Positions 9,759-18,028 of a DNA stretch of 64,000 bases are shown in pieces. The position numbers and the translations under genes were made by a program. The notes below the pieces were generated by a model. The model had not been told where the DNA came from and did not search any database. It saw nothing but the letters and a program-made list of their open reading frames with translations. The DNA is from Escherichia coli (lineage in GTDB: Bacteria > Pseudomonadota > Gammaproteobacteria > Enterobacterales > Enterobacteriaceae): assembly GCF_009931435.1 (NCBI RefSeq), contig NZ_CP043414.1; one strand, given 5' to 3'. Each line of letters begins with the position of its first letter. Position 1 is the first letter of the stretch.

Positions 9759-10330
9759 TGAAAATAATCGACATAAAGGCGATGAAATACCTGGAAGACG
9801 GGTCTGTTTCCTGTGAAGTGTTGTTTGGAGGGCGGGCTGATTATATTCCTTATCGTGCAGTGGAAAATGATTCTGCTGCATCAGGCCAGCGGGTATGGGG
9901 AACACTGATGAGCGGTGAGTTTGGTGAAATCATCCCCTTCACTGTAACAGCAGAGATGCTGGACAAAGAAAAAGAACTGAAAAAAGAGGAAATCAGGCGC
10001 TGGCGAACAGAACAGGAGGCGCAGCCGTTCACATTCGAATGGAACAGCAGCACATGGAATGGAGGAAAATCCTCACTGGAACGCTTATTCCCGGCAGTGA
10101 TGGCAGCAAAATCTGGTGTGGCACACAATGCCACAGTATGGAGTGATGCAAATAACCAACAAATTAAATTGTCACAACAAAAGCTGGAAGAACTACTTAC
10201 GGCAATGGTGCAGGCTCAGGCTGCACGCAACGATGAGATTTACCTGCGCCAGCGTGAGATGAAAAACACGCTGGCCACACTGAATAACATTGCTGCAATT
10301 AGGGCATTTCAGGTGGGCAAAGCAGAATGA
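9758..10330 (+). CDS. tail fibre assembly chaperone for fibre 2
   Basis: 190 aa starting MKIIDIKAMKY; ATG overlaps fibre 2 stop; coiled-coil-like C-terminus. Confidence 0.5.
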   Translation: MKIIDIKAMKYLEDGSVSCEVLFGGRADYIPYRAVENDSAASGQRVWGTLMSGEFGEIIPFTVTAEMLDKEKELKKEEIRRWRTEQEAQPFTFEWNSSTWNGGKSSLERLFPAVMAAKSGVAHNATVWSDANNQQIKLSQQKLEELLTAMVQAQAARNDEIYLRQREMKNTLATLNNIAAIRAFQVGKAE

Positions 10331-11040
10331 AATGGAAAGAGGTAATTTTACGTCCGTCTGCCATAAACATTAAATGTTCTGTGGTTTGTCTTCATCCGTG
10401 GTCAGAAAATACCGGAAACATCAAACCATCGGGGCGTTATCTCAGCCCCGAAAATGCTGTATCTGCACTTTTACCCTACCTGAAAGAAAGCACAGAAAAA
10501 GACATTGTGGCGCTGTTGTTTTGCGCTCCTTCTGCTGGCGAGTTTTTATCACTCGCCAGGCAATTTTCAGGCGCATTTCCATTGCCAGAGGTGGGGCGAA
10601 TGTCCCGCATGATTTCCAGTCAACTTTCACTGGCCATCAGCAGAATGCAAATCCCCGCCAGACCGGCAACATCACTTCCGGAACCGATAATGCTGTCGAC
10701 ACAGACCACTCGCAGCATGTCGCTGGCAGCAACCATTGCACAGGCAGCCACTCCTGCCGCCACATCACCGGAAACATTGTCATCATCGCTGCATCAGTTC
10801 ATGAATGCGAGAGATAAAGCCTTACAGGAAATCGCTGATCAGCAGGCCGCACTCCGGCAAAAAGTTTGCCCGGTGTGGCGCTTTTGCTACAAGGGAGCCC
10901 TTAGCCAGGCTGCAGTGCTGATACAAAAAAACATCCCACACCCCGAGTGGGTTTTTACAGCTGTGATGCTGTTCGTCGGCGATAATCTCTCATCACTAAG
11001 GGAAGCACTACATGACCCAGATGATTGTCCTTGCGCTTGA
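10327..11040 (+). CDS. hypothetical protein (Ser/Thr/Ala-rich)
   Basis: 237-aa ORF, ATGA-coupled to the upstream gene; no family recognised. Confidence 0.4.
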   Translation: MKWKEVILRPSAINIKCSVVCLHPWSENTGNIKPSGRYLSPENAVSALLPYLKESTEKDIVALLFCAPSAGEFLSLARQFSGAFPLPEVGRMSRMISSQLSLAISRMQIPARPATSLPEPIMLSTQTTRSMSLAATIAQAATPAATSPETLSSSLHQFMNARDKALQEIADQQAALRQKVCPVWRFCYKGALSQAAVLIQKNIPHPEWVFTAVMLFVGDNLSSLREALHDPDDCPCA

Positions 11041-11587
11041 CGGGGAAGCCATTCTGCTGCGTAACATCACCGTCAGCGCCACCATGCAACTACCGGACAA
11101 AGATATGTCCGGACAGTCAACCAGCACCACGAGCGCCCAGCAGGGAAACAAGGCTAAAGAGCTGCGCGTGTCGGGGGTTATTGATTTTAACGATGAAGCT
11201 ATTCTGACCCGTATTTTTCAGCTTGCGGAGGCAACAGAAAGCAACGGTGCTAAAAAAACATATCGCATTGCTAACGCTACCGCGAAGGCAATCAATATGC
11301 GACAGGGGGTGTTTTCTGGTGGCATTGATGCCACGGAACAACAGGGAAAAATGCACTGGCAGATCACCTTTACTCTCAGGGAAAAATTAAGCGTGCCAGA
11401 GAAAGCATCCGCACGCAGCGGTTCGCAGAAAACCATCGCCAGACAGCAGACCCAGAATGGCAGCGAACAGGTACCAGACAAAGGCATGAATACGCAAAGT
11501 TCGTTCTGGAAAAAAATCAATGATGCCGTTGGCTCTGGTCTGGATGCTGTTGGCATCGGGAGCGTGAAAGAGGAAGGGAAAACATGA
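11012..11587 (+). CDS. tail protein, possibly gpU-like
   Basis: 191 aa; segment LRVSGVIDFND...MHWQITFTLRE loosely resembles the P2 gpU family as I recall it; immediately 5' of a hub-like gene, matching P2 U-D order. Confidence 0.35.
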   Translation: MTQMIVLALDGEAILLRNITVSATMQLPDKDMSGQSTSTTSAQQGNKAKELRVSGVIDFNDEAILTRIFQLAEATESNGAKKTYRIANATAKAINMRQGVFSGGIDATEQQGKMHWQITFTLREKLSVPEKASARSGSQKTIARQQTQNGSEQVPDKGMNTQSSFWKKINDAVGSGLDAVGIGSVKEEGKT

Positions 11588-13281
11588 AATTGATACAACG
11601 CTGCATGATTAATGGCGAACGGGTGGAAATTGCCGATATAAGCCTTGTTCTTACCCTGAATGCTGCCGGTCGTGGCTTCATTTCTGTTAACAATCTGTCA
11701 CCCGAACACAGCCTTGCCGGCGCAATGGTACAAATTGATCTCGGCCGTGACGGTGAAGCATGGCGCTATTTCTCCGGCTACATTGAGCGCGATCAACCTG
11801 CTGAAAATGGCTCACGTCGCCTTTTTATTCGTGAAGCGGCTGCTGTGCTGGATTTTGATTTCCCTTGCTCCATGCAACACCCGACGTTGCGGGGGGTACT
11901 CGATAATCTGGGGCGACAAAGCGGTATCGTTTTTATCACTCCGGATGCGGATTATGCCAGTATACCAACTCCCTACATCACCCACAGCGGCAGCGGAGCA
12001 CAACTGCTCAGCCAACTGGGGCGAGCATTCAGTATCAGCGATTACGTCTGGCACCCTATGCCGGACGGTTCTGTATTTGTGGGAAGCGCAGCTGATTCAC
12101 GATTTGCCAGTATTACAATGCCGGATATTCCGCAACAGTACACACTCGGGCAAAGCGGCGGAAACAGCATCGACATCATGTTTATGGAAACTGTGCGACC
12201 GGGCGTGAACCTACCGGCCGGGCGCATTACCCGTGTAGCCCTCAACAACGAGAAAATGACCCTGACATGGGAGCGCCTTACCGCCACGGGTACCCCTGTT
12301 TCCAAATCACCATTACGCAGACAAATGGAAACACAGTTCCCAGAACTGGCCAGCGGTACGCTACATACCCGGCTGGCGCGCGTCATTGCGCCAACGGAGC
12401 CCACCACCCTGGGCGACGTGGCCGACAGTTTCCGCCCACGCTACGCCGTCGATGTGCAGTTGCTTGATGAGAACGGCAACGATAAAAGCGACACGCCCGT
12501 TTACCCGGCAGTACCGCTCCCCGTCCCCATGGCTGGCAGTGAGGCGGGATGTTTTGCCTACCCACCGGCAGGCACCATCGTGGAAATATCCAACATTGAA
12601 GGACGTCCGGACAAACCCGTTATCAGGCAAATCTTACCCGCTGGCCATAACCTGCCTGATGTAAAGCCCGGCGAACAGCTGCAGCAACAGCGCGCAGAAG
12701 TGTTTCAGCGCGTCACGACTGACGGAAGCTGGCACAGAGAAACCGATCAGCAAATCAGGGAGCATTCAGCCAGACGAACCATTAACAGCGATCAGGAAGA
12801 ACGCACAACAACAACCAGAACAACAACAGTACAGGCAAACGACATAACCAGCGTTCTGGGAACCAGCAAGCTGATGACAGGCCAGACAGAACACATTACT
12901 ACTGGTCATTATGCGATCGCAGCCGGTGAGCATATCCAGATGGTAGCGCAGGATTTGCTGACTAAACTCAAAGGGGCGACATCCACGATTGAGCGCGACC
13001 TTACTGAAAACGTGGGAGGCCGCAGAACATGCCGGGCGGACGGTGGTCTGGAGTTTACAGCCCCGACAGTATTTATTGGTCGCGGTGGCTCACGGGAAAA
13101 ATCCGGACTTAATCTGCTGACGTTGTTGATTGATATTCTGGATCTGGTTCAGTTGCTGGCCACACACACTGCAAACCACACCCACAGCAACACCGGCGCA
13201 CCAACAAACAACAGCGAACTTGCCGCAGACGCCAAACAGGCTACGAGCCTGCGCGAAAAATACGGTGACCTTATCGCCTGA
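11584..13281 (+). CDS. baseplate hub protein, gpD/gp27/VgrG-like
   Basis: 565 aa; N-terminal pattern ...ISLVLTLNAAGRGF...AMVQIDLGRDGEAWRYFSGYIER is typical of Phage_GPD/VgrG N-domains; Thr-rich stretch EERTTTTRTTTVQ; last gene of the tail operon. Confidence 0.5.
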   Translation: MKLIQRCMINGERVEIADISLVLTLNAAGRGFISVNNLSPEHSLAGAMVQIDLGRDGEAWRYFSGYIERDQPAENGSRRLFIREAAAVLDFDFPCSMQHPTLRGVLDNLGRQSGIVFITPDADYASIPTPYITHSGSGAQLLSQLGRAFSISDYVWHPMPDGSVFVGSAADSRFASITMPDIPQQYTLGQSGGNSIDIMFMETVRPGVNLPAGRITRVALNNEKMTLTWERLTATGTPVSKSPLRRQMETQFPELASGTLHTRLARVIAPTEPTTLGDVADSFRPRYAVDVQLLDENGNDKSDTPVYPAVPLPVPMAGSEAGCFAYPPAGTIVEISNIEGRPDKPVIRQILPAGHNLPDVKPGEQLQQQRAEVFQRVTTDGSWHRETDQQIREHSARRTINSDQEERTTTTRTTTVQANDITSVLGTSKLMTGQTEHITTGHYAIAAGEHIQMVAQDLLTKLKGATSTIERDLTENVGGRRTCRADGGLEFTAPTVFIGRGGSREKSGLNLLTLLIDILDLVQLLATHTANHTHSNTGAPTNNSELAADAKQATSLREKYGDLIA

Positions 13282-13880
13282 TCACCGGGCATACCCCCCC
13301 ATAAACGCCCATCACGCAACGCACGGCTCCGGTCGTGCGTTTTCATATCTGCCACCTGATTAATGCGTTCTGCGTGCCATTCTGGCGCTGTATGCGCACA
13401 CCGCGTAAACGGTGTGACGTAAAGCGTGAGGTGACGTAAACCGCGCTACCCCCTCCAACCCGCGGGTTTCGTGTCGAAACAGTTTTTCAGTTTTCTGCCG
13501 TGCAAAAATGACCGCCAGCCCGCGCAGCAACTGAGGGAAAAGCGAAGATCTGAAATTTCACGCTTTGAAATTTTTTGCAGTTTTCAAAGTGGTTTTTACG
13601 ATCGCACAAATGGCCGGAGCAATAAAACCGCATGATATTAAAAGAGTTTTCATACTTTACGCGAGACAAAAAAACGATCACGAAAGGATCGCATCAAACA
13701 GCCATCAAACAAAGAAGGCAGACACGGCGCGGCCTGCACAAAATTAAGCTCCAAAATAAAACTGAAAAAAAGGATCGCAACAAGAAGAAAAGCGCGTAAA
13801 ACGATCGCTGCTGATGTGGCGTTTCTTTATACAAGCTGCTATTTGCGATATGCTGAACACATCAACCTGTGGAGTGCATT

Positions 13881-14507
13881 ATGAAACGAAAATCAAAGTC
13901 TGCTGCCATTGCTGCTATTACTACAGCTCTGACAGCATCACTGGCTCCGGTGCCAGCTAAAAGCACGATACTACCAACAACAGTTATTGAATCCGCGACA
14001 CACGCCAGAGTGGTTTCAATGCTTACATTTGAGCATCATGATGGTCAGGTGTTTCTGCCTCTCGAAGAAGCTATTGAATATATCAACGGGCTGAATGACA
14101 ACATGCGCGCCGCGCTCAATGCAGTCATTGAAGAACGACAGAACAGAGGCAAGGGAGCACTGTTTACTGACAAAACCGCAAAAATCATAAAAATATGCGA
14201 AGAGTCAATTAAGCAGCACACCCGTGTTAAAGAGGCTGTCAAAATTGTAATGGATCCGGATAACCTGGCAAAAATGTATCCGGATAGCCTGGAGCAAAGA
14301 ATCGCCTATCGCAATAAACTGGTTCGTTTTGGTCGGGCAATTGCGCAGGGAGAGTTTATCGCTCGTGATGCCATCAACACCATCAAACGAAGCACCGCAC
14401 CAGACAAAACAACCAGCCTGGGCAATACGCTGTCTGACGGAAATGTGAAAGCAATGATTATTGCCGAGCATAAAAACATGGGACTCCCGGCACCGGAGTT
14501 TTCCTGA
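13881..14507 (+). CDS. hypothetical secreted protein (signal peptide)
   Basis: MKRKSKSAAIAAITTALTASLA-PVP has an n-region, h-region and A-x-A site; about 208 aa; stop overlaps the next ATG (TGATG). Confidence 0.5.
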   Translation: MKRKSKSAAIAAITTALTASLAPVPAKSTILPTTVIESATHARVVSMLTFEHHDGQVFLPLEEAIEYINGLNDNMRAALNAVIEERQNRGKGALFTDKTAKIIKICEESIKQHTRVKEAVKIVMDPDNLAKMYPDSLEQRIAYRNKLVRFGRAIAQGEFIARDAINTIKRSTAPDKTTSLGNTLSDGNVKAMIIAEHKNMGLPAPEFS

Positions 14508-14887
14508 TGGCAAGCAAAGTAAGCATTCATAAAGATGTTGAATACCAGGACATTGCAAAAGTTTACGGAAAGGCTCTGGAAAACTGGTTAAATACCGGTG
14601 TTCTCCCTGACAGATTCGGCAATGAAGGGCAGTGGGAAGATAACGCAAGATTATGTGGTTCGTTTGTATATAAATTACACATAAGACTACCGTCAGAACC
14701 ACCATGGAAGAAAAGCAAAGCCCAAATAGACAGAACTTCAAATATCTATCTGGTTTATACAAGGCACTGGATGGATTATGACAATATACAAATCATCAGC
14801 ATCATGGCCCCAGATGCTCACGAAAAAGCCAAAACTTCTTTCATGGCTGAACTGGAAAGACGGGCTGAAGAATTCCAGAACTCATAA
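14507..14887 (+). CDS. YafO-like toxin family protein
   Basis: 126 aa; GVLPDRFG, KLHIRL, IYLVYTRHW and a C-terminal AE..RRAEEF line up with E. coli YafO as recalled from memory (GVLPDTFG, HIHL, HLVY...). Confidence 0.5.
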   Translation: MASKVSIHKDVEYQDIAKVYGKALENWLNTGVLPDRFGNEGQWEDNARLCGSFVYKLHIRLPSEPPWKKSKAQIDRTSNIYLVYTRHWMDYDNIQIISIMAPDAHEKAKTSFMAELERRAEEFQNS

Positions 14888-14906
14888 ATTGCCTGATTTT
14901 CTCTCA

Positions 14907-14940
14907 GAAACCCGCAGCGTAAAAACTGTGGGTTTTCTTT
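14907..14940 (+). terminator. rho-independent terminator after the YafO-like gene
   Basis: gaaacccgcag...ctgtgggttt hairpin followed by TTTTTC. Confidence 0.5.
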
Positions 14941-15178
14941 TTGCTACCCTGATACGTGAGGGTAGCACTCAAAGTGAGGCAATATGTAGGCAACCTATTT
15001 AATACGTAAAAATTAATGCATTAAATGGATATTTACTAGCATGGGTACTGGCTTAAAATATCACAACCCTGTTTTATAACGTACTGAATTTATTAGGTGT
15101 GACGGTTTTCCAATGGGGCTTCCGACATTACGTTCAGCTGATGCTTTTCTTATGTAACGAGAAGACATATATTGGTAA

Positions 15179-15234
15179 GCGATGAAGCGATGAAGCGATG
15201 AAGCGATGAAGCGATGAAGCGATGAAGCGATGTA
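15179..15234. repeat. 8-bp tandem repeat (GCGATGAA) x6 plus one variant copy (GCGATGTA)
   Basis: Read directly: six perfect head-to-tail units then one variant, about 95 bp upstream of the ATPase gene start. Confidence 0.95.
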
Positions 15235-15251
15235 ACGTCTGTTTGGTTATA

Positions 15252-15296
15252 AACTTCACACTAATAATTTCTAAATGAAATTATTAGTGTGAAGTT
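15252..15296. promoter_or_regulatory. perfect 20-bp-arm inverted repeat (candidate operator or RNA hairpin) upstream of the ATPase gene
   Basis: aacttcacactaataatttc (15252-15271) / gaaattattagtgtgaagtt (15277-15296), 5-nt loop; 33 bp before the ATG at 15330. Confidence 0.6.
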
Positions 15297-15329
15297 GATG
15301 TTTATTGTGATTATAACTAAGGAATTAAA

Positions 15330-16799
15330 ATGAAATTATCTCCAGCAGAATTGAAGTTAGAAAGGGGTAAGGTTCAAGATAATAAATTCAATCAATATGT
15401 TAAACGTATCACATTAAAAAATGTCAGAGGGTTTGATGAGGAAATTGTGGAGTTTAAAACACCAGTTACAGCTCTTATCGGGACTAATGGTGGAGGGAAG
15501 TCGACTATATTAGGTGCTGTAGCTCTCGCTTATAAAAATGTTAAGCCAAGCAAGTTTTTCCCTAAATCATTTTATGGGGATGATTCAATGAGTGATTGGG
15601 AAATTGGATTCGAATTGATTGACAAGCCTATTTCAAAAGATAAAAATATTAACAGGACTGCAAAATTTAAACAGATGAAATGGCGCAGAGATAATTTCCC
15701 AGAGCGAAATGTTGTATATGTAGAAATACAAAGAACTGTTCCTGCAGGCGAACTAACTAAGTTTAATAAATTTTTATCTGGCGATGCTAAACAATTTGAA
15801 GAAAAAAATCTCAACCCTGAGACAATAAAATATTGCTCTGCCGTTTTAGATAAAAAGATAGAAGATTACAGATGTATAATAAATAAGCACGATCCATCTT
15901 CAAGAATGTTTGTAGGTAAGGCAATTAATGGTTCTGGTTATTCTCAGTTCCATTTTGGTGCAGGTGAAGCATCAATAATAGATACTATTGATAGAATAGA
16001 GACTGCTGCTGATAATTCTCTTGTTTTAATTGAAGAAATTGAAAATGGACTGCATCCTGTTGCAGTGCGGTTGTTTGTTAACTATTTGACAAATGTAGCA
16101 AAGAGGAAAAAGCTGCAAATAATATTTACAACACATTCGCAGGATGCAGTAAACGAGCTAGAGCCAGAAGCTGTTTGGGCTTCTATTAACAAAAAAGTAT
16201 GGAATGGTAAACTAAGTATTGAAAGTTTACGCGCTATAACGGGACAGAAGATAAATTCGAAAGTTATATATGTTGAAGATTCTTTTGCAAAAGAGTGGGT
16301 TGAAAATGCGATGGATCGATATATTCCAGAACTAGCCTCAACAATAAAAGTCTACACGGCAGGTGGTTACCCCAGCGTGGTTAAAGTAAGTCAATATCAT
16401 AATGAGAACCCTACTATAAATTATCCATCAATCGCATTAGTTGATGGGGATATTAAAGGTAGACCCGGAACTAAAGATCTGCCTGATAATGCAATGTTCA
16501 TCGGGGATGATTATCCTGACGCTACGGTTTTTCATTATATTGCAAATAACATAGAAGAAAATGCCTCAGTTTTGAGGCAAAGATGTTTGTTAACAAGATT
16601 TGACGCTGAAAAGATTAAATCGGAAGTTGAGAGTGTGATGCATTCTGCATGTGATCACCATGTTTATTTTACTAGATTAAGTGATAAATTAGATTTTGCC
16701 TCAGAACTATTCATTCGAGCTGGTATGATAGATTTATTTAATGAGAAAAATCCAGAATTTTGGTCCCCAATTATGGACTTCATTAAAAAAGGTCTATAG
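15330..16799 (+). CDS. ABC-type ATPase fused to a Toprim/DUF4435-like domain (OLD-family or fused-PARIS-like candidate defence nuclease)
   Basis: 489 aa; Walker A GTNGGGKST (K57), signature-like SGYSQFHFGAGEAS, Walker B LVLIEE (E235/E236), H-loop FTTHS; C-terminal VIYVED (E316) and ALVDGD (D372/D374) fit Toprim Glu and DxD; strongly AT-rich; own RBS and terminator. Confidence 0.6.
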   Translation: MKLSPAELKLERGKVQDNKFNQYVKRITLKNVRGFDEEIVEFKTPVTALIGTNGGGKSTILGAVALAYKNVKPSKFFPKSFYGDDSMSDWEIGFELIDKPISKDKNINRTAKFKQMKWRRDNFPERNVVYVEIQRTVPAGELTKFNKFLSGDAKQFEEKNLNPETIKYCSAVLDKKIEDYRCIINKHDPSSRMFVGKAINGSGYSQFHFGAGEASIIDTIDRIETAADNSLVLIEEIENGLHPVAVRLFVNYLTNVAKRKKLQIIFTTHSQDAVNELEPEAVWASINKKVWNGKLSIESLRAITGQKINSKVIYVEDSFAKEWVENAMDRYIPELASTIKVYTAGGYPSVVKVSQYHNENPTINYPSIALVDGDIKGRPGTKDLPDNAMFIGDDYPDATVFHYIANNIEENASVLRQRCLLTRFDAEKIKSEVESVMHSACDHHVYFTRLSDKLDFASELFIRAGMIDLFNEKNPEFWSPIMDFIKKGL

Positions 16800-16865
16800 T
16801 AATAATGCAAAAATATAATATTTAGTTTGCGATTTATATTTTTCATAATGAATTGTTGAGAAAAT

Positions 16866-16900
16866 AAGAGAGCATCGAAAATTGAGGCTCTCTTATTTTT
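16866..16900 (+). terminator. rho-independent terminator of the ATPase gene
   Basis: aagagagc (16866-16873) / gctctctt (16887-16894) stem followed by ATTTTT. Confidence 0.6.
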
Positions 16901-17082
16901 ATGAGATATCTCTAATGTATTAATCGTTTTATTTTGGTGCTACCACCACTGATGCTAACTTGTCGATCAGACATTCGCACTATTCAATATCTTTTAGGCT
17001 CCGCAATGAAAACGCCCCCGAAGGAACAATCCCCCGTCAATCGGTTGCCAAAGGCCATTTAGGTAAATCGCCTTCGAGGTCG

Positions 17083-17346
17083 TTCGATGGCTGCATGACG
17101 TTCCCGGTTATCCCGTCAAAGAAAATGCACTCGACCGGAAAACCAGAAGAACTAATGGCGGAGTTGGTCAGGACTGCGAATAGTGGCGGAACAGTCCTTG
17201 ATCCTTTTATGGGGCCAGGGACAACGGGTGTGGCTGCACTGAAAGCAGGGCGAAAATTTATTGGTATAGAGACCAGTGATCATTATTTTGAAGTAGCAGC
17301 ACAGCGACTTCGGGGGACTATTACCACAACCATTTCGACTACATAA
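17083..17346 (+). pseudogene. C-terminal fragment of a beta-class N6A/N4C DNA methyltransferase
   Basis: ...HSTGKPEELMAELVRTANSGGTVLDPFMGPGTTGVAALKAGRKFIGIETSDHYFEVAAQRL matches the AdoMet-binding FxGxG end of N6_N4 MTases; no DPPY-containing N-terminal part upstream. Confidence 0.6.
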
Positions 17347-17446
17347 GACAAAGCCCGCATTTTTGCGGGCTTGTATATCATTAGTGATGTGGACAGTTTG
17401 TGGATGTTTACAAGAAATAAGCTAATAGAAACAATTTGTTATCTTT

Positions 17447-17474
17447 ACAAAAAACGCGCCCGAAGGCGCGTTGG
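17447..17474 (-). terminator. raiA terminator
   Basis: aaaaaacgcgcc-cgaa-ggcgcgtt hairpin 3' of raiA (minus strand), T-run on the transcribed strand. Confidence 0.6.
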
Positions 17475-17495
17475 CGATACACTCAATATAAAGGA

Positions 17496-17891
<396 letters not shown>

Positions 17892-18028
17892 TCAAAATGT
17901 GTGATGGAAATCTCATAATTTTGTCACTTTTTGTCAACGAATCTTTTTTGTGAGAAATCGCAGGAAGAGGTGTTTTTTTACTTGAGGAATATCTCAAAGC
18001 GAGCCATATTTGATGAGATCGATAGTGA

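What the first reader, a model, noticed from the sequence alone, without database searches (positions are those of the whole stretch)
10327..11040. Unassigned 237-aa Ser/Thr/Ala-rich ORF embedded in the tail operon
It is translationally coupled on both sides, so it is probably expressed with the tail genes, but it matches no tail component I recognise. It lies at the position where P2-like phages often carry variable cargo after the fibre genes. It could be a novel structural accessory protein or a moron.
Basis: seen in the sequence. Interest (0 to 1): 0.35.

Follow-up and report, generated by a model that had tools for sequence, protein, structure and literature searches.

The report
HP1 orf33-type phage baseplate-module protein
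The unassigned 237-aa ORF is not cargo: it is a conserved core gene of HP1-type P2-like prophages (the HP1 orf33 family), always encoded with the tail hub and spike genes and detected in virions of one relative, but its exact job in the tail tip is still unknown.

Summary
The ORF (10327-11040, +, 237 aa) is real. It overlaps both neighbours, is under purifying selection (dN/dS 0.03-0.23), and gives a very confident AlphaFold2 model (pLDDT 93.8).

It belongs to the Haemophilus phage HP1 orf33 family (PHROG 31292/1677, no assigned function). In 150 of 154 related loci it sits directly upstream of an HP1 orf34-like gene (possibly P2 gpU-like) and an orf35-like gene (fused gpD hub and gpV spike). 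Its divergence tracks those two genes (r = 0.93 and 0.95), not the variable fibre-chaperone gene upstream (r = 0.45).

A distant homologue, Pseudoalteromonas phage ACA1 gp46, was detected by mass spectrometry in purified virions at baseplate-like abundance (PMC10612066).

The family has no Pfam or NCBIfam model, no detectable P2 homologue, and no fold match in PDB or BFVD.

It has none of the marks of a moron: no promoter-like site and operon-typical GC. The true cargo slot lies after orf35.

Best reading: a low-copy baseplate or hub-associated structural protein specific to the HP1 subgroup, perhaps taking the place of the missing LysM protein gpX. That last step is inference only, and a fused co-fold with orf34 gave no confident interface.

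This is an ordinary but poorly characterised phage gene: a new member of a known family of unknown function.

The parts
10327..11040 (+). Target ORF 'X': HP1 orf33-family protein, 237 aa, 25.9 kDa, pI 8.5
   Evidence: ORF. PHROG 31292 at E 1e-73 and PHROG 1677 at E 1e-39. hhalign of family alignment A2 against HP1 orf33: prob 99.95%, E 2e-38. dN/dS 0.03-0.23. AF2 pLDDT 93.8, pTM 0.81.
10327..10330 (+). ATGA start/stop overlap with the upstream DUF4376 fibre-chaperone gene (translational coupling)
   Evidence: Sequence read directly.
11012..11040 (+). 29-nt overlap between the 3' end of X and the start of the orf34-like gene; conserved in most enterobacterial loci
   Evidence: Sequence. A 29-nt overlap is seen in most of loci L003-L091; other clades have overlaps of 4-28 nt, and some have short gaps of 10-25 nt.
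11012..11587 (+). HP1 orf34-like 'baseplate complex protein' (191 aa), possibly the gpU-like tube-initiator equivalent
   Evidence: Pfam PF25759 HP1_ORF34 at E 2.5e-53. PHROG 1398. The literature assigns HP1 orf34 to P2 gpU but marks this 'uncertain' (PMC10612066 Table S1).
11584..13281 (+). HP1 orf35-like fused hub and spike (565 aa; gpD-like N-terminal part, gpV/VgrG-like OB-fold and spike C-terminal part)
   Evidence: PHROG 2258 'baseplate protein' at E 9e-232. Weak Phage_base_V and VgrG matches. HP1 P51739 N and C halves assigned to gpD and gpV (PMC10612066 Table S1).
9758..10330 (+). Upstream DUF4376 tail-fibre chaperone-like gene. This is the last gene of the variable fibre cassette and is context, not part of the conserved trio.
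   Evidence: Pfam DUF4376 at E 1.9e-12 and PHROG 1141. Highly divergent between prophages whose X is nearly identical.
3302..5461 (+). Wedge genes: gpW-like (DUF2590), gpJ-like and gpI-like. These are the presumed partners of the hub module.
   Evidence: Annotation of the near-identical prophage L001. DUF2590.

Best explanation
X is the E. coli prophage member of the HP1 orf33 protein family, a core late gene of HP1-subgroup Peduoviridae.

**Expression (read from the sequence; inferred).** X appears to be translated from the tail operon by coupling. Its start overlaps the stop of the fibre-chaperone gene. Its last 29 nt contain the start of the orf34-like gene, which is followed by the fused gpD-gpV hub-spike gene.

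**Module (shown).** X, orf34 and orf35 form one inherited module.

**Function (inferred).** The protein is a compact alpha/beta protein incorporated in a few copies per virion, roughly 3-12, in or next to the central baseplate.

**Specific role (inferred by elimination).**
- Every other essential P2 tail gene (R, S, FI, FII, E/E', T, W, J, I, H, G, U?, D, V) has a counterpart in this prophage.
- The small LysM protein gpX does not, and orf33 is the only HP1-type late gene without a P2 counterpart.
- So X most likely acts as the lineage-specific glue or stabiliser between the tube-initiator/hub complex and the (J)2-I wedges. LysM proteins (P2 gpX, T4 gp53) and XM1 gp12 play this role elsewhere.
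For: - **Family membership:** PHROG hits; hhalign to HP1 orf33, prob 99.95%; tblastn of a distant member hits HP1, HP2 orf33, F108, K139 and phiO18P.
- **Fixed synteny:** X-orf34-orf35 in 150 of 154 loci; the rest are cut by contig ends.
- **Co-divergence:** r = 0.93 with orf34 and 0.95 with orf35, against 0.45 with the upstream gene.
- **Selection:** dN/dS 0.03-0.23.
- **Fold:** confident AF2 model, pLDDT 93.8.
- **Virion presence:** ACA1 gp46 is homologous to the X family (hhalign prob 97.7%, E 1.5e-12). It was detected by LC-MS/MS in purified virions at SC/MW 0.09, similar to gpW 0.08, gpJ 0.05 and gpV 0.06 (PMC10612066 Table S2; GenBank note). Yersinia phage vB_YenM_324 gp033 is annotated 'structural protein'.
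- **No gpX:** no LysM or gpX family was found in the late genes scanned in the near-identical prophage.
- **Precedent:** XM1 gp12 is a lineage-specific inner-baseplate protein encoded next to the tube initiator (PMC10457771).
Against: - Virion evidence is thin: 2 spectra at 6% coverage, in a homologue sharing only about 16-17% identity and lacking the conserved N-terminal HPW...YLSPxNA region.
- No location within the virion is known for any family member.
- The fused X-linker-orf34 co-fold gave pTM 0.47. That is about what two independently folded domains give, so no 1:1 interface is predicted.
- The 'replaces gpX' step rests on elimination only.
Confidence: 0.6

Rival explanations
1. X is a non-structural assembly factor for the hub or baseplate. 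It would be needed to build the orf34/orf35 complex but largely absent from finished particles, as with T4 gp51 or tail assembly chaperones.
For: - Only 2 spectra in ACA1 virions.
- No predicted stable heterodimer with orf34.
- X evolves faster than orf34 and orf35: mean pairwise identity 37% against 49%.
Against: - It was detected in purified virions at the same normalised level as genuine baseplate proteins, while the scaffold C-terminal part and gpS were not detected.
- It has a rigid, well-packed predicted fold.
- It is annotated 'structural protein' in vB_YenM_324.
Confidence: 0.2
2. X is a fibre-related accessory protein: an adaptor, or a second chaperone serving the tail fibres encoded just upstream.
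For: - It lies directly after the fibre and chaperone genes and overlaps the chaperone's stop codon.
- One database protein (P0076) joins a Caudo_TAP C-terminus to an X N-terminus.
- One family member (P0136) carries a 310-aa N-terminal extension of unknown fold.
Against: - X does not co-vary with the upstream fibre or chaperone cassette. Among pairs with X identity above 60%, the upstream gene averages 32% identity and can be unrelated.
- The conserved block shared among E. coli prophages starts inside the chaperone's 3' half and runs through orf35.
- In ACA1 the gene follows a retroelement (DGR) cassette but still precedes orf34.
- No Pfam chaperone family matches any of 97 members.
Confidence: 0.1
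3. X is a highly diverged homologue of a known P2 tail protein: gpX, gpU, or a split-off C-terminal piece of gpD.
For: The X-family HMM gives a 10-bit hit to P2 gpD residues 241-323 (E 4.5e-4 in a 17-sequence search). Both show a helix-strand pattern after that region.
Against: - hhalign probability for gpD is 0.2%, and at most 0.8% for every P2 late protein.
- The aligned gpD stretch is a Lys/Ala-rich low-complexity linker.
- Phage_GPD, Phage_P2_GpU and Phage_tail_X match none of the 97 family members, even at E <= 10.
Confidence: 0.05
4. X is a moron or cargo gene (lysogenic conversion or defence) inserted after the fibre genes.
For: Its position after the fibre genes resembles the P2 G/FI cargo slot. 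It has no annotated function.
Against: - It is present at the same place in all HP1-subgroup phages examined.
- There is no promoter-like site in 9000-14000: 0 found, 4.7 expected.
- GC is 0.50, like the operon. The real cargo at 15-17 kb has GC 0.33-0.35.
- No PADLOC hit.
- It overlaps both neighbouring genes.
Confidence: 0.02

Closest known systems
Haemophilus phage HP1 orf33 (UniProt P51737) and its family (PHROG 1677 / 31292; K139 orf37/38 region, HP2 orf33, ESSI-2, SW3/SI7, vB_YenM_324 gp033)
   Same: Homologous over the full length (hhalign prob 99.95%). Same position between the fibre-assembly gene and orf34/orf35, and the same overlapping-gene arrangement.
   Different: Only 20-35% identical to the phage prototypes. 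The E. coli clade lacks the roughly 55-70-aa N-terminal helical extension of the 290-300-aa Vibrio/Aeromonas-type members. No member has an assigned function.
Pseudoalteromonas phage ACA1 gp46 (WMT83697; 'HP1 orf33', detected by mass spectrometry)
   Same: Same syntenic slot, directly before the orf34-like gp47 and the gpD/gpV-like gp48/gp49. Homologous over X residues 57-228 (prob 97.7%). It is the only family member with experimental virion evidence.
   Different: 209 aa, about 17% identity, and lacks the conserved N-terminal beta region with the HPW...SGxYLSPxNA motif. In ACA1 the hub and spike are separate genes.
Vibrio phage XM1 gp12, the 'baseplate stabilization protein' (PDB 7YFZ; PMC10457771)
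   Same: A lineage-specific globular protein of about 190 aa, encoded next to the tube-initiator gene of a simple myophage. It has six isolated copies wedged between the tube-initiator ring and the gpJ-like wedge protein. This is the role proposed here for X.
P2 gpX / T4 gp53 / pyocin-type LysM inner-baseplate proteins
   Same: An essential small tail protein linking hub and wedges (own knowledge of the T4 and R-pyocin baseplate structures). gpX is the one P2 tail protein without a counterpart in this prophage.
   Different: No LysM domain and no sequence similarity (hhalign prob 0.4%). X is 3.5 times larger than gpX. gpX is encoded among the head-completion and lysis genes in P2.

Membership tests
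HP1 orf33 family (PHROG 1677/31292) | Significant full-length sequence similarity to HP1 orf33 and the family profile | tested here: met
   PHROG 31292 at E 1.3e-73 and PHROG 1677 at E 1e-39. A2 profile against HP1 orf33: prob 99.95%, E 2e-38.
HP1 orf33 family (PHROG 1677/31292) | Encoded directly upstream of the orf34-like and orf35-like (hub-spike) genes, at the end of the tail operon | tested here: met
   150 of 154 loci have X-orf34-orf35 in order; the other four are cut by contig ends. In the window: 10327-11040, 11012-11587, 11584-13281.
HP1 orf33 family (PHROG 1677/31292) | Presence in the virion | not testable with these tools
   Literature only: ACA1 gp46, 2 spectra at 6% coverage (PMC10612066 Table S2). 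The 'structural protein' label in vB_YenM_324 has no traceable data.
P2 gpX (LysM, Phage_tail_X) | LysM-type domain or sequence similarity to gpX | tested here: not met
   No Pfam hit in X or in any of the 97 family members. hhalign against P2 gpX: prob 0.4%.
P2 gpU / tube-initiator proteins (PF06995) | Sequence or fold similarity to gpU or the tail-tube fold | tested here: not met
P2 gpD / gp27-like hub (PF05954) | Similarity to the Phage_GPD profile or to the hub fold | tested here: not met
Phage moron / variable cargo | Own promoter or terminator, atypical composition, patchy presence among related phages | tested here: not met
   0 promoter-like sites. GC 0.50, equal to the operon. Present in all related loci. 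No PADLOC hit.
Tail-fibre assembly chaperones (Caudo_TAP, DUF4376) | Family domain, and co-variation with the cognate fibre | tested here: not met
   No such Pfam domain. X identity correlates poorly with the upstream gene: r = 0.45, against 0.93-0.95 for the hub genes.
XM1 gp12-type baseplate stabilisation protein | Immunoglobulin-like fold; contacts with the tube-initiator ring and the gpJ-like wedge protein | tested here: not met

The most novel reading that the evidence does not exclude
The orf33 family is a previously unrecognised class of inner-baseplate protein with a fold not seen in any solved contractile injection system. It would be present in about six copies between the gpU-like ring and the (J)2-I wedges of all HP1-subgroup phages, functionally replacing the LysM protein of P2, T4 and pyocins. 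Its invariant HPW...SGxYLSPxNA surface would be the docking or trigger site.
Probability: 0.3. Interest if true: 0.4.

Novelty: new member of a known kind. Interest (0 to 1): 0.3.

Why it matters
HP1-type tails (HP1, K139/Kappa of Vibrio cholerae, ESSI-2-like prophages of enterobacteria) are among the simplest contractile tails. Their parts list still contains one conserved, virion-associated protein with no function, no Pfam family and no structural relative.

Placing orf33 in the baseplate would complete the minimal parts list for this lineage. It would also show whether the hub-wedge 'glue' position is filled by unrelated proteins in different lineages: LysM in P2 and T4, an Ig-like protein in XM1, and orf33 here.

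For genome annotation, the practical result is that this ORF should be labelled 'HP1 orf33-family virion/baseplate-module protein' rather than treated as cargo. The cargo or defence hotspot of these prophages lies after orf35.

Tried and rejected
1. **PDB by sequence.** Single sequence and 97-member profile; only chance hits.
2. **Fold searches of the pLDDT 93.8 model.**
   - Foldseek PDB: best E 0.9.
   - Foldseek BFVD: nothing.
   - afdb50 was unavailable.
3. **Pfam, NCBIfam, PADLOC.** Nothing for X. No recurring Pfam family among 97 members, even at E <= 10.
4. **Homology to P2 late proteins.** HMM and hhalign were negative. The 10-bit gpD hit was judged compositional. A gpD homologue search returned only relatives of at least 77% identity, so it did not deepen the test.
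5. **Physical interaction with orf34.** I folded X + G30 + orf34 as a fused chain with a 34-row paired alignment.
   - pTM was 0.47. Both cores stayed confident, and the linker and tails were disordered.
   - This gives no evidence for a 1:1 interface. It is not evidence against contacts in the hexameric context. The coordinates and PAE could not be inspected.
6. **Megablast of the region against the phage collection.** No near-identical sequenced phage.
7. **Literature.**
   - Searches for vB_YenM_324 and for an HP1 cryo-EM structure found nothing.
   - The K139 genome paper is not held.
   - The PV94 proteomics mention only the tape measure and a baseplate protein.
8. **The search for related loci with the broad alignments.** Failed for lack of a conserved peptide stretch. 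It worked with the narrower alignments A1 and A5.

Full report
**Observation**

The ORF exists exactly as described: ATG at 10327, TGA at 11038-11040, 237 aa.
- Its start codon overlaps the stop of the upstream DUF4376 fibre-chaperone-like gene (ATGA).
- The next gene starts at 11012, so the two genes overlap by 29 nt. A Shine-Dalgarno-like AAGGGAAG lies just upstream of that start.
- "Ser/Thr/Ala-rich" is only mildly true. S+T+A is 27.8% overall, against 19-28% for the neighbouring tail proteins. The enrichment is concentrated in residues 106-165, with 18 of 30 in 121-150.

**Context**

The window is E. coli chromosome. It carries the right half of an HP1/ESSI-2-like Peduoviridae prophage inserted next to raiA-bamD-rluD-clpB-rrn. 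This is shown by the near-identical strain MB07081, which is 99.9% identical over 9700-13300.

The late genes run in this order:

| Gene | Window coordinates |
|---|---|
| M15 endolysin, tail chaperones | upstream of 1216 |
| Tape measure | 1216-3312 |
| gpW-like (DUF2590) | 3302-3652 |
| gpJ-like | 3642-4829 |
| gpI-like | 4826-5461 |
| Fibre and chaperone cassette 1 | 5458-7712 |
| Fibre and chaperone cassette 2 | 7719-10330 |
| X | 10327-11040 |
| HP1_ORF34-family 'baseplate complex protein' (PF25759, E 2.5e-53) | 11012-11587 |
| 565-aa PHROG 2258 'baseplate protein' | 11584-13281 |

The 565-aa protein has weak gpV/VgrG OB-fold matches.

**The gene is real**

- The 3.6-kb query spanning the ORF matches 68 of 5,426 complete E. 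coli genomes; in 47 the match covers at least 80% of the query. The five loci inspected all keep the 714-nt frame.
- 474 IMG/VR stretches encode relatives.
- An exhaustive profile search finds 242 cluster representatives at E <= 1e-3, and 36 at E <= 1e-30.
- Among five E. coli prophages the 714-nt frame has identical length. dN/dS is 0.03-0.23, comparable with orf34 (0.00-0.11) and orf35 (0.04-0.13).
- AlphaFold2 with a 97-sequence alignment gives mean pLDDT 93.8 and pTM 0.81, with no disordered segment. The model is a compact alpha/beta protein with two long helices at 87-105 and 148-177.

**What it is**

X has no Pfam, NCBIfam or PADLOC match. It matches PHROG 31292 (1e-73) and PHROG 1677 (1e-39), both of unknown function.

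tblastn finds homologues at the same position in several phages:
- ESSI-2 and the ESSI2_ev phages;
- Salmonella SW3, SW5 and SI7;
- Yersinia vB_YenM_324, where the protein is labelled 'structural protein'.

A distant family member used as query reaches HP1, HP2 (orf33), Pasteurella F108/CFP3/Pmp6, Vibrio K139/Kappa and Aeromonas phiO18P. Profile-sequence comparison with HP1 orf33 gives probability 99.95%, E 2e-38, over the whole length. X is therefore the HP1 orf33 family.

The most conserved feature is an N-terminal motif: (V)HPW/Y...G.G....SG.YLSP.NA. In the close-relative alignment A1, H23, P24, W25, G30, G36, Y38, L39, S40, P41, N43 and A44 are invariant. In the broad alignment A2, only L39, A44 and P204 are conserved in at least 90% of sequences.

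**Module membership**

In 154 loci (phage records, E. coli prophages and IMG/VR contigs), 150 have X, an orf34 homologue and an orf35 homologue in that order. The other four are cut by contig ends. Most X-orf34 junctions overlap: 29 nt in most enterobacterial loci, and 4, 7, 13, 26 or 28 nt elsewhere. A minority have short gaps of 10-25 nt.

Pairwise identities among 46 non-redundant loci:

| Comparison with X | Pearson r |
|---|---|
| orf34 | 0.93 |
| orf35 | 0.95 |
| Gene immediately upstream | 0.45 |

The upstream gene has a mean identity of 17% and is often unrelated. Consistently, megablast matches among E. coli prophages begin in the 3' half of the chaperone gene and run to the end of orf35. 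X belongs to the conserved hub module, not to the exchangeable fibre cassette.

**Not a moron**

- No sigma-70-like promoter site occurs in 9000-14000: 0 found against 4.7 expected.
- GC is 0.50, like the operon.
- The gene overlaps both neighbours.
- The true variable slot lies after orf35.
  - In this window it holds a 212-aa ORF plus a YafO-family toxin, a PADLOC HEC-04 ATPase (E 6e-204; GC 0.33-0.35) and a methylase fragment.
  - In strain MB07081 the same slot holds Hok/Gef, Com and a DNA methyltransferase.

**Experimental evidence from the literature**

The analysis of Pseudoalteromonas phages ACA1 and ACA2 (PMC10612066, supplementary Tables S1 and S2) makes these assignments:
- ACA1 gp46 maps to HP1 orf33 and has no P2 homologue.
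- gp47 maps to HP1 orf34 and possibly to P2 gpU, marked 'uncertain'.
- gp48 and gp49 map to the N- and C-terminal halves of HP1 orf35, that is gpD and gpV, which are fused in HP1.

LC-MS/MS of purified ACA1 virions detected gp46 ('HP1 orf33') with 2 spectra at 6% coverage and SC/MW 0.09. That is in the range of gpW (0.08), gpJ (0.05), gpV (0.06) and gpD (0.19).

I confirmed that ACA1 gp46 is a true, though partial and distant, homologue of the X family: hhalign prob 97.7%, E 1.5e-12, over X residues 57-228.

**Relation to known components**

- The X-family profile finds nothing convincing among the P2 late proteins. hhalign probabilities are at most 0.8%.
- A 10-bit HMM hit to gpD 241-323 falls on a Lys/Ala-rich linker and is not supported by hhalign.
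- No Pfam family, including Phage_GPD, Phage_P2_GpU and Phage_tail_X, recurs among the 97 family members even at E <= 10.
- The confident model has no structural neighbour.
  - Foldseek on PDB: best E 0.9.
  - Foldseek on BFVD: nothing.

**Mechanism**

What the sequence and comparisons show:
- The overlapping junctions point to translational coupling within the tail operon.
- X is co-inherited with the hub genes.
- A homologue is present in virions at low copy.

What is inferred, by elimination. Every essential P2 tail gene has a counterpart in this prophage except the LysM protein gpX. No LysM or Phage_tail_X domain was found in the late proteins scanned in the near-identical prophage. orf33 is the only HP1-type late gene without a P2 counterpart.

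In T4 (gp53) and in P2 and pyocins (gpX-type), the LysM protein links hub and wedges; this statement rests on my own knowledge of those baseplate structures. In Vibrio phage XM1 an unrelated, lineage-specific Ig-like protein, gp12, occupies the space between the tube-initiator ring and the gpJ-like wedge protein. It is encoded next to the tube-initiator gene (PMC10457771).

I therefore propose that X is the HP1-subgroup's inner-baseplate stabiliser. My probabilities are:
- about 0.6 that it is a baseplate or hub-associated structural protein;
- about 0.3 that it specifically plays the glue role.

A direct test was uninformative. I folded X-G30-orf34 as a fused chain with a 34-row paired alignment. 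It gave pTM 0.47 with both cores still confident, so no 1:1 interface is predicted. Coordinates and PAE were not available to me.

**Verdict**

- The 'moron or cargo slot' reading is not supported.
- The ORF is a new E. coli member of a long-known but functionally unassigned phage family.
- Residual interest lies in the lack of any structural or sequence relative for a conserved virion protein of a simple contractile tail.

Noticed in passing
window 13300-18000: The real variable cargo slot of this prophage lies between orf35 and the chromosomal raiA side. In strain MB07081 the same slot holds Hok/Gef + Com + DNA methyltransferase, and in other strains Hok/Gef + a TM2-domain protein.
   Followed up: partly
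window 15330-16799: A 489-aa AAA_15/AAA_21 ATPase matches the PADLOC candidate defence family HEC-04 end to end (E 6e-204). It sits in a low-GC island (GC 0.33-0.35), so it is likely a prophage-borne anti-phage gene.
   Followed up: partly
window 13869-14887: A 212-aa ORF with no family match is followed, with an ATGA overlap, by a 126-aa YafO-family type II toxin (PF13957, E 1e-27). The upstream ORF may be its unconventional antitoxin. RefSeq labels its counterpart in strain A2 'SufA'.
   Followed up: partly
window 16960-17346: A 128-aa ORF matches only the C-terminal part of N6_N4 DNA methylases, so it looks like a truncated methyltransferase remnant.
   Followed up: no
window 5458-10330: Two tail-fibre + chaperone cassettes lie in tandem: a 566-aa fibre with a Caudo_TAP chaperone, then a 679-aa fibre with a DUF4376 chaperone. 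Both fibres have the Phage_tail_fib N-terminal collar domain. In the near-identical strain, RefSeq annotates the second fibre as fragments, including a spurious 'shikimate transporter'.
   Followed up: no
window 11012-11040 and loci L003-L091: The 29-nt X/orf34 overlap is conserved in length across enterobacterial prophages whose proteins are only 35-45% identical. The conserved X C-terminus (HDPD...) and the orf34 N-terminus (MTQ.I.LALDGE) are therefore encoded by the same bases in two frames.
   Followed up: partly
window 11012-11587 (orf34 C-terminus, about 11480-11560) and paired alignment A6: orf34-family proteins end with a low-confidence, poorly conserved linker followed by a short conserved amphipathic motif (LSWFE+KVLKPxNDALG in many; SFWKKINDAVG here). 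This is reminiscent of the XM1 gp11 C-terminus that wraps gp12. In the fused model it is a helix of only moderate confidence.
   Followed up: no
proteins P0136, P0076, P0080 (family members): Rare architectures occur in the family. P0136 (527 aa) has a roughly 310-aa N-terminal extension with Ala/Thr-rich repeats and no Pfam match. P0076 joins a Caudo_TAP C-terminus to the X N-terminus, possibly read-through or mis-assembly.
   Followed up: partly
P2 gpD residues 241-323 (L155 23511-23759): The X-family HMM gives a weak (10-bit) hit to the Lys/Ala-rich linker and following helix of P2 gpD. I judged it compositional, but it was not tested with deep profiles on both sides.
   Followed up: partly
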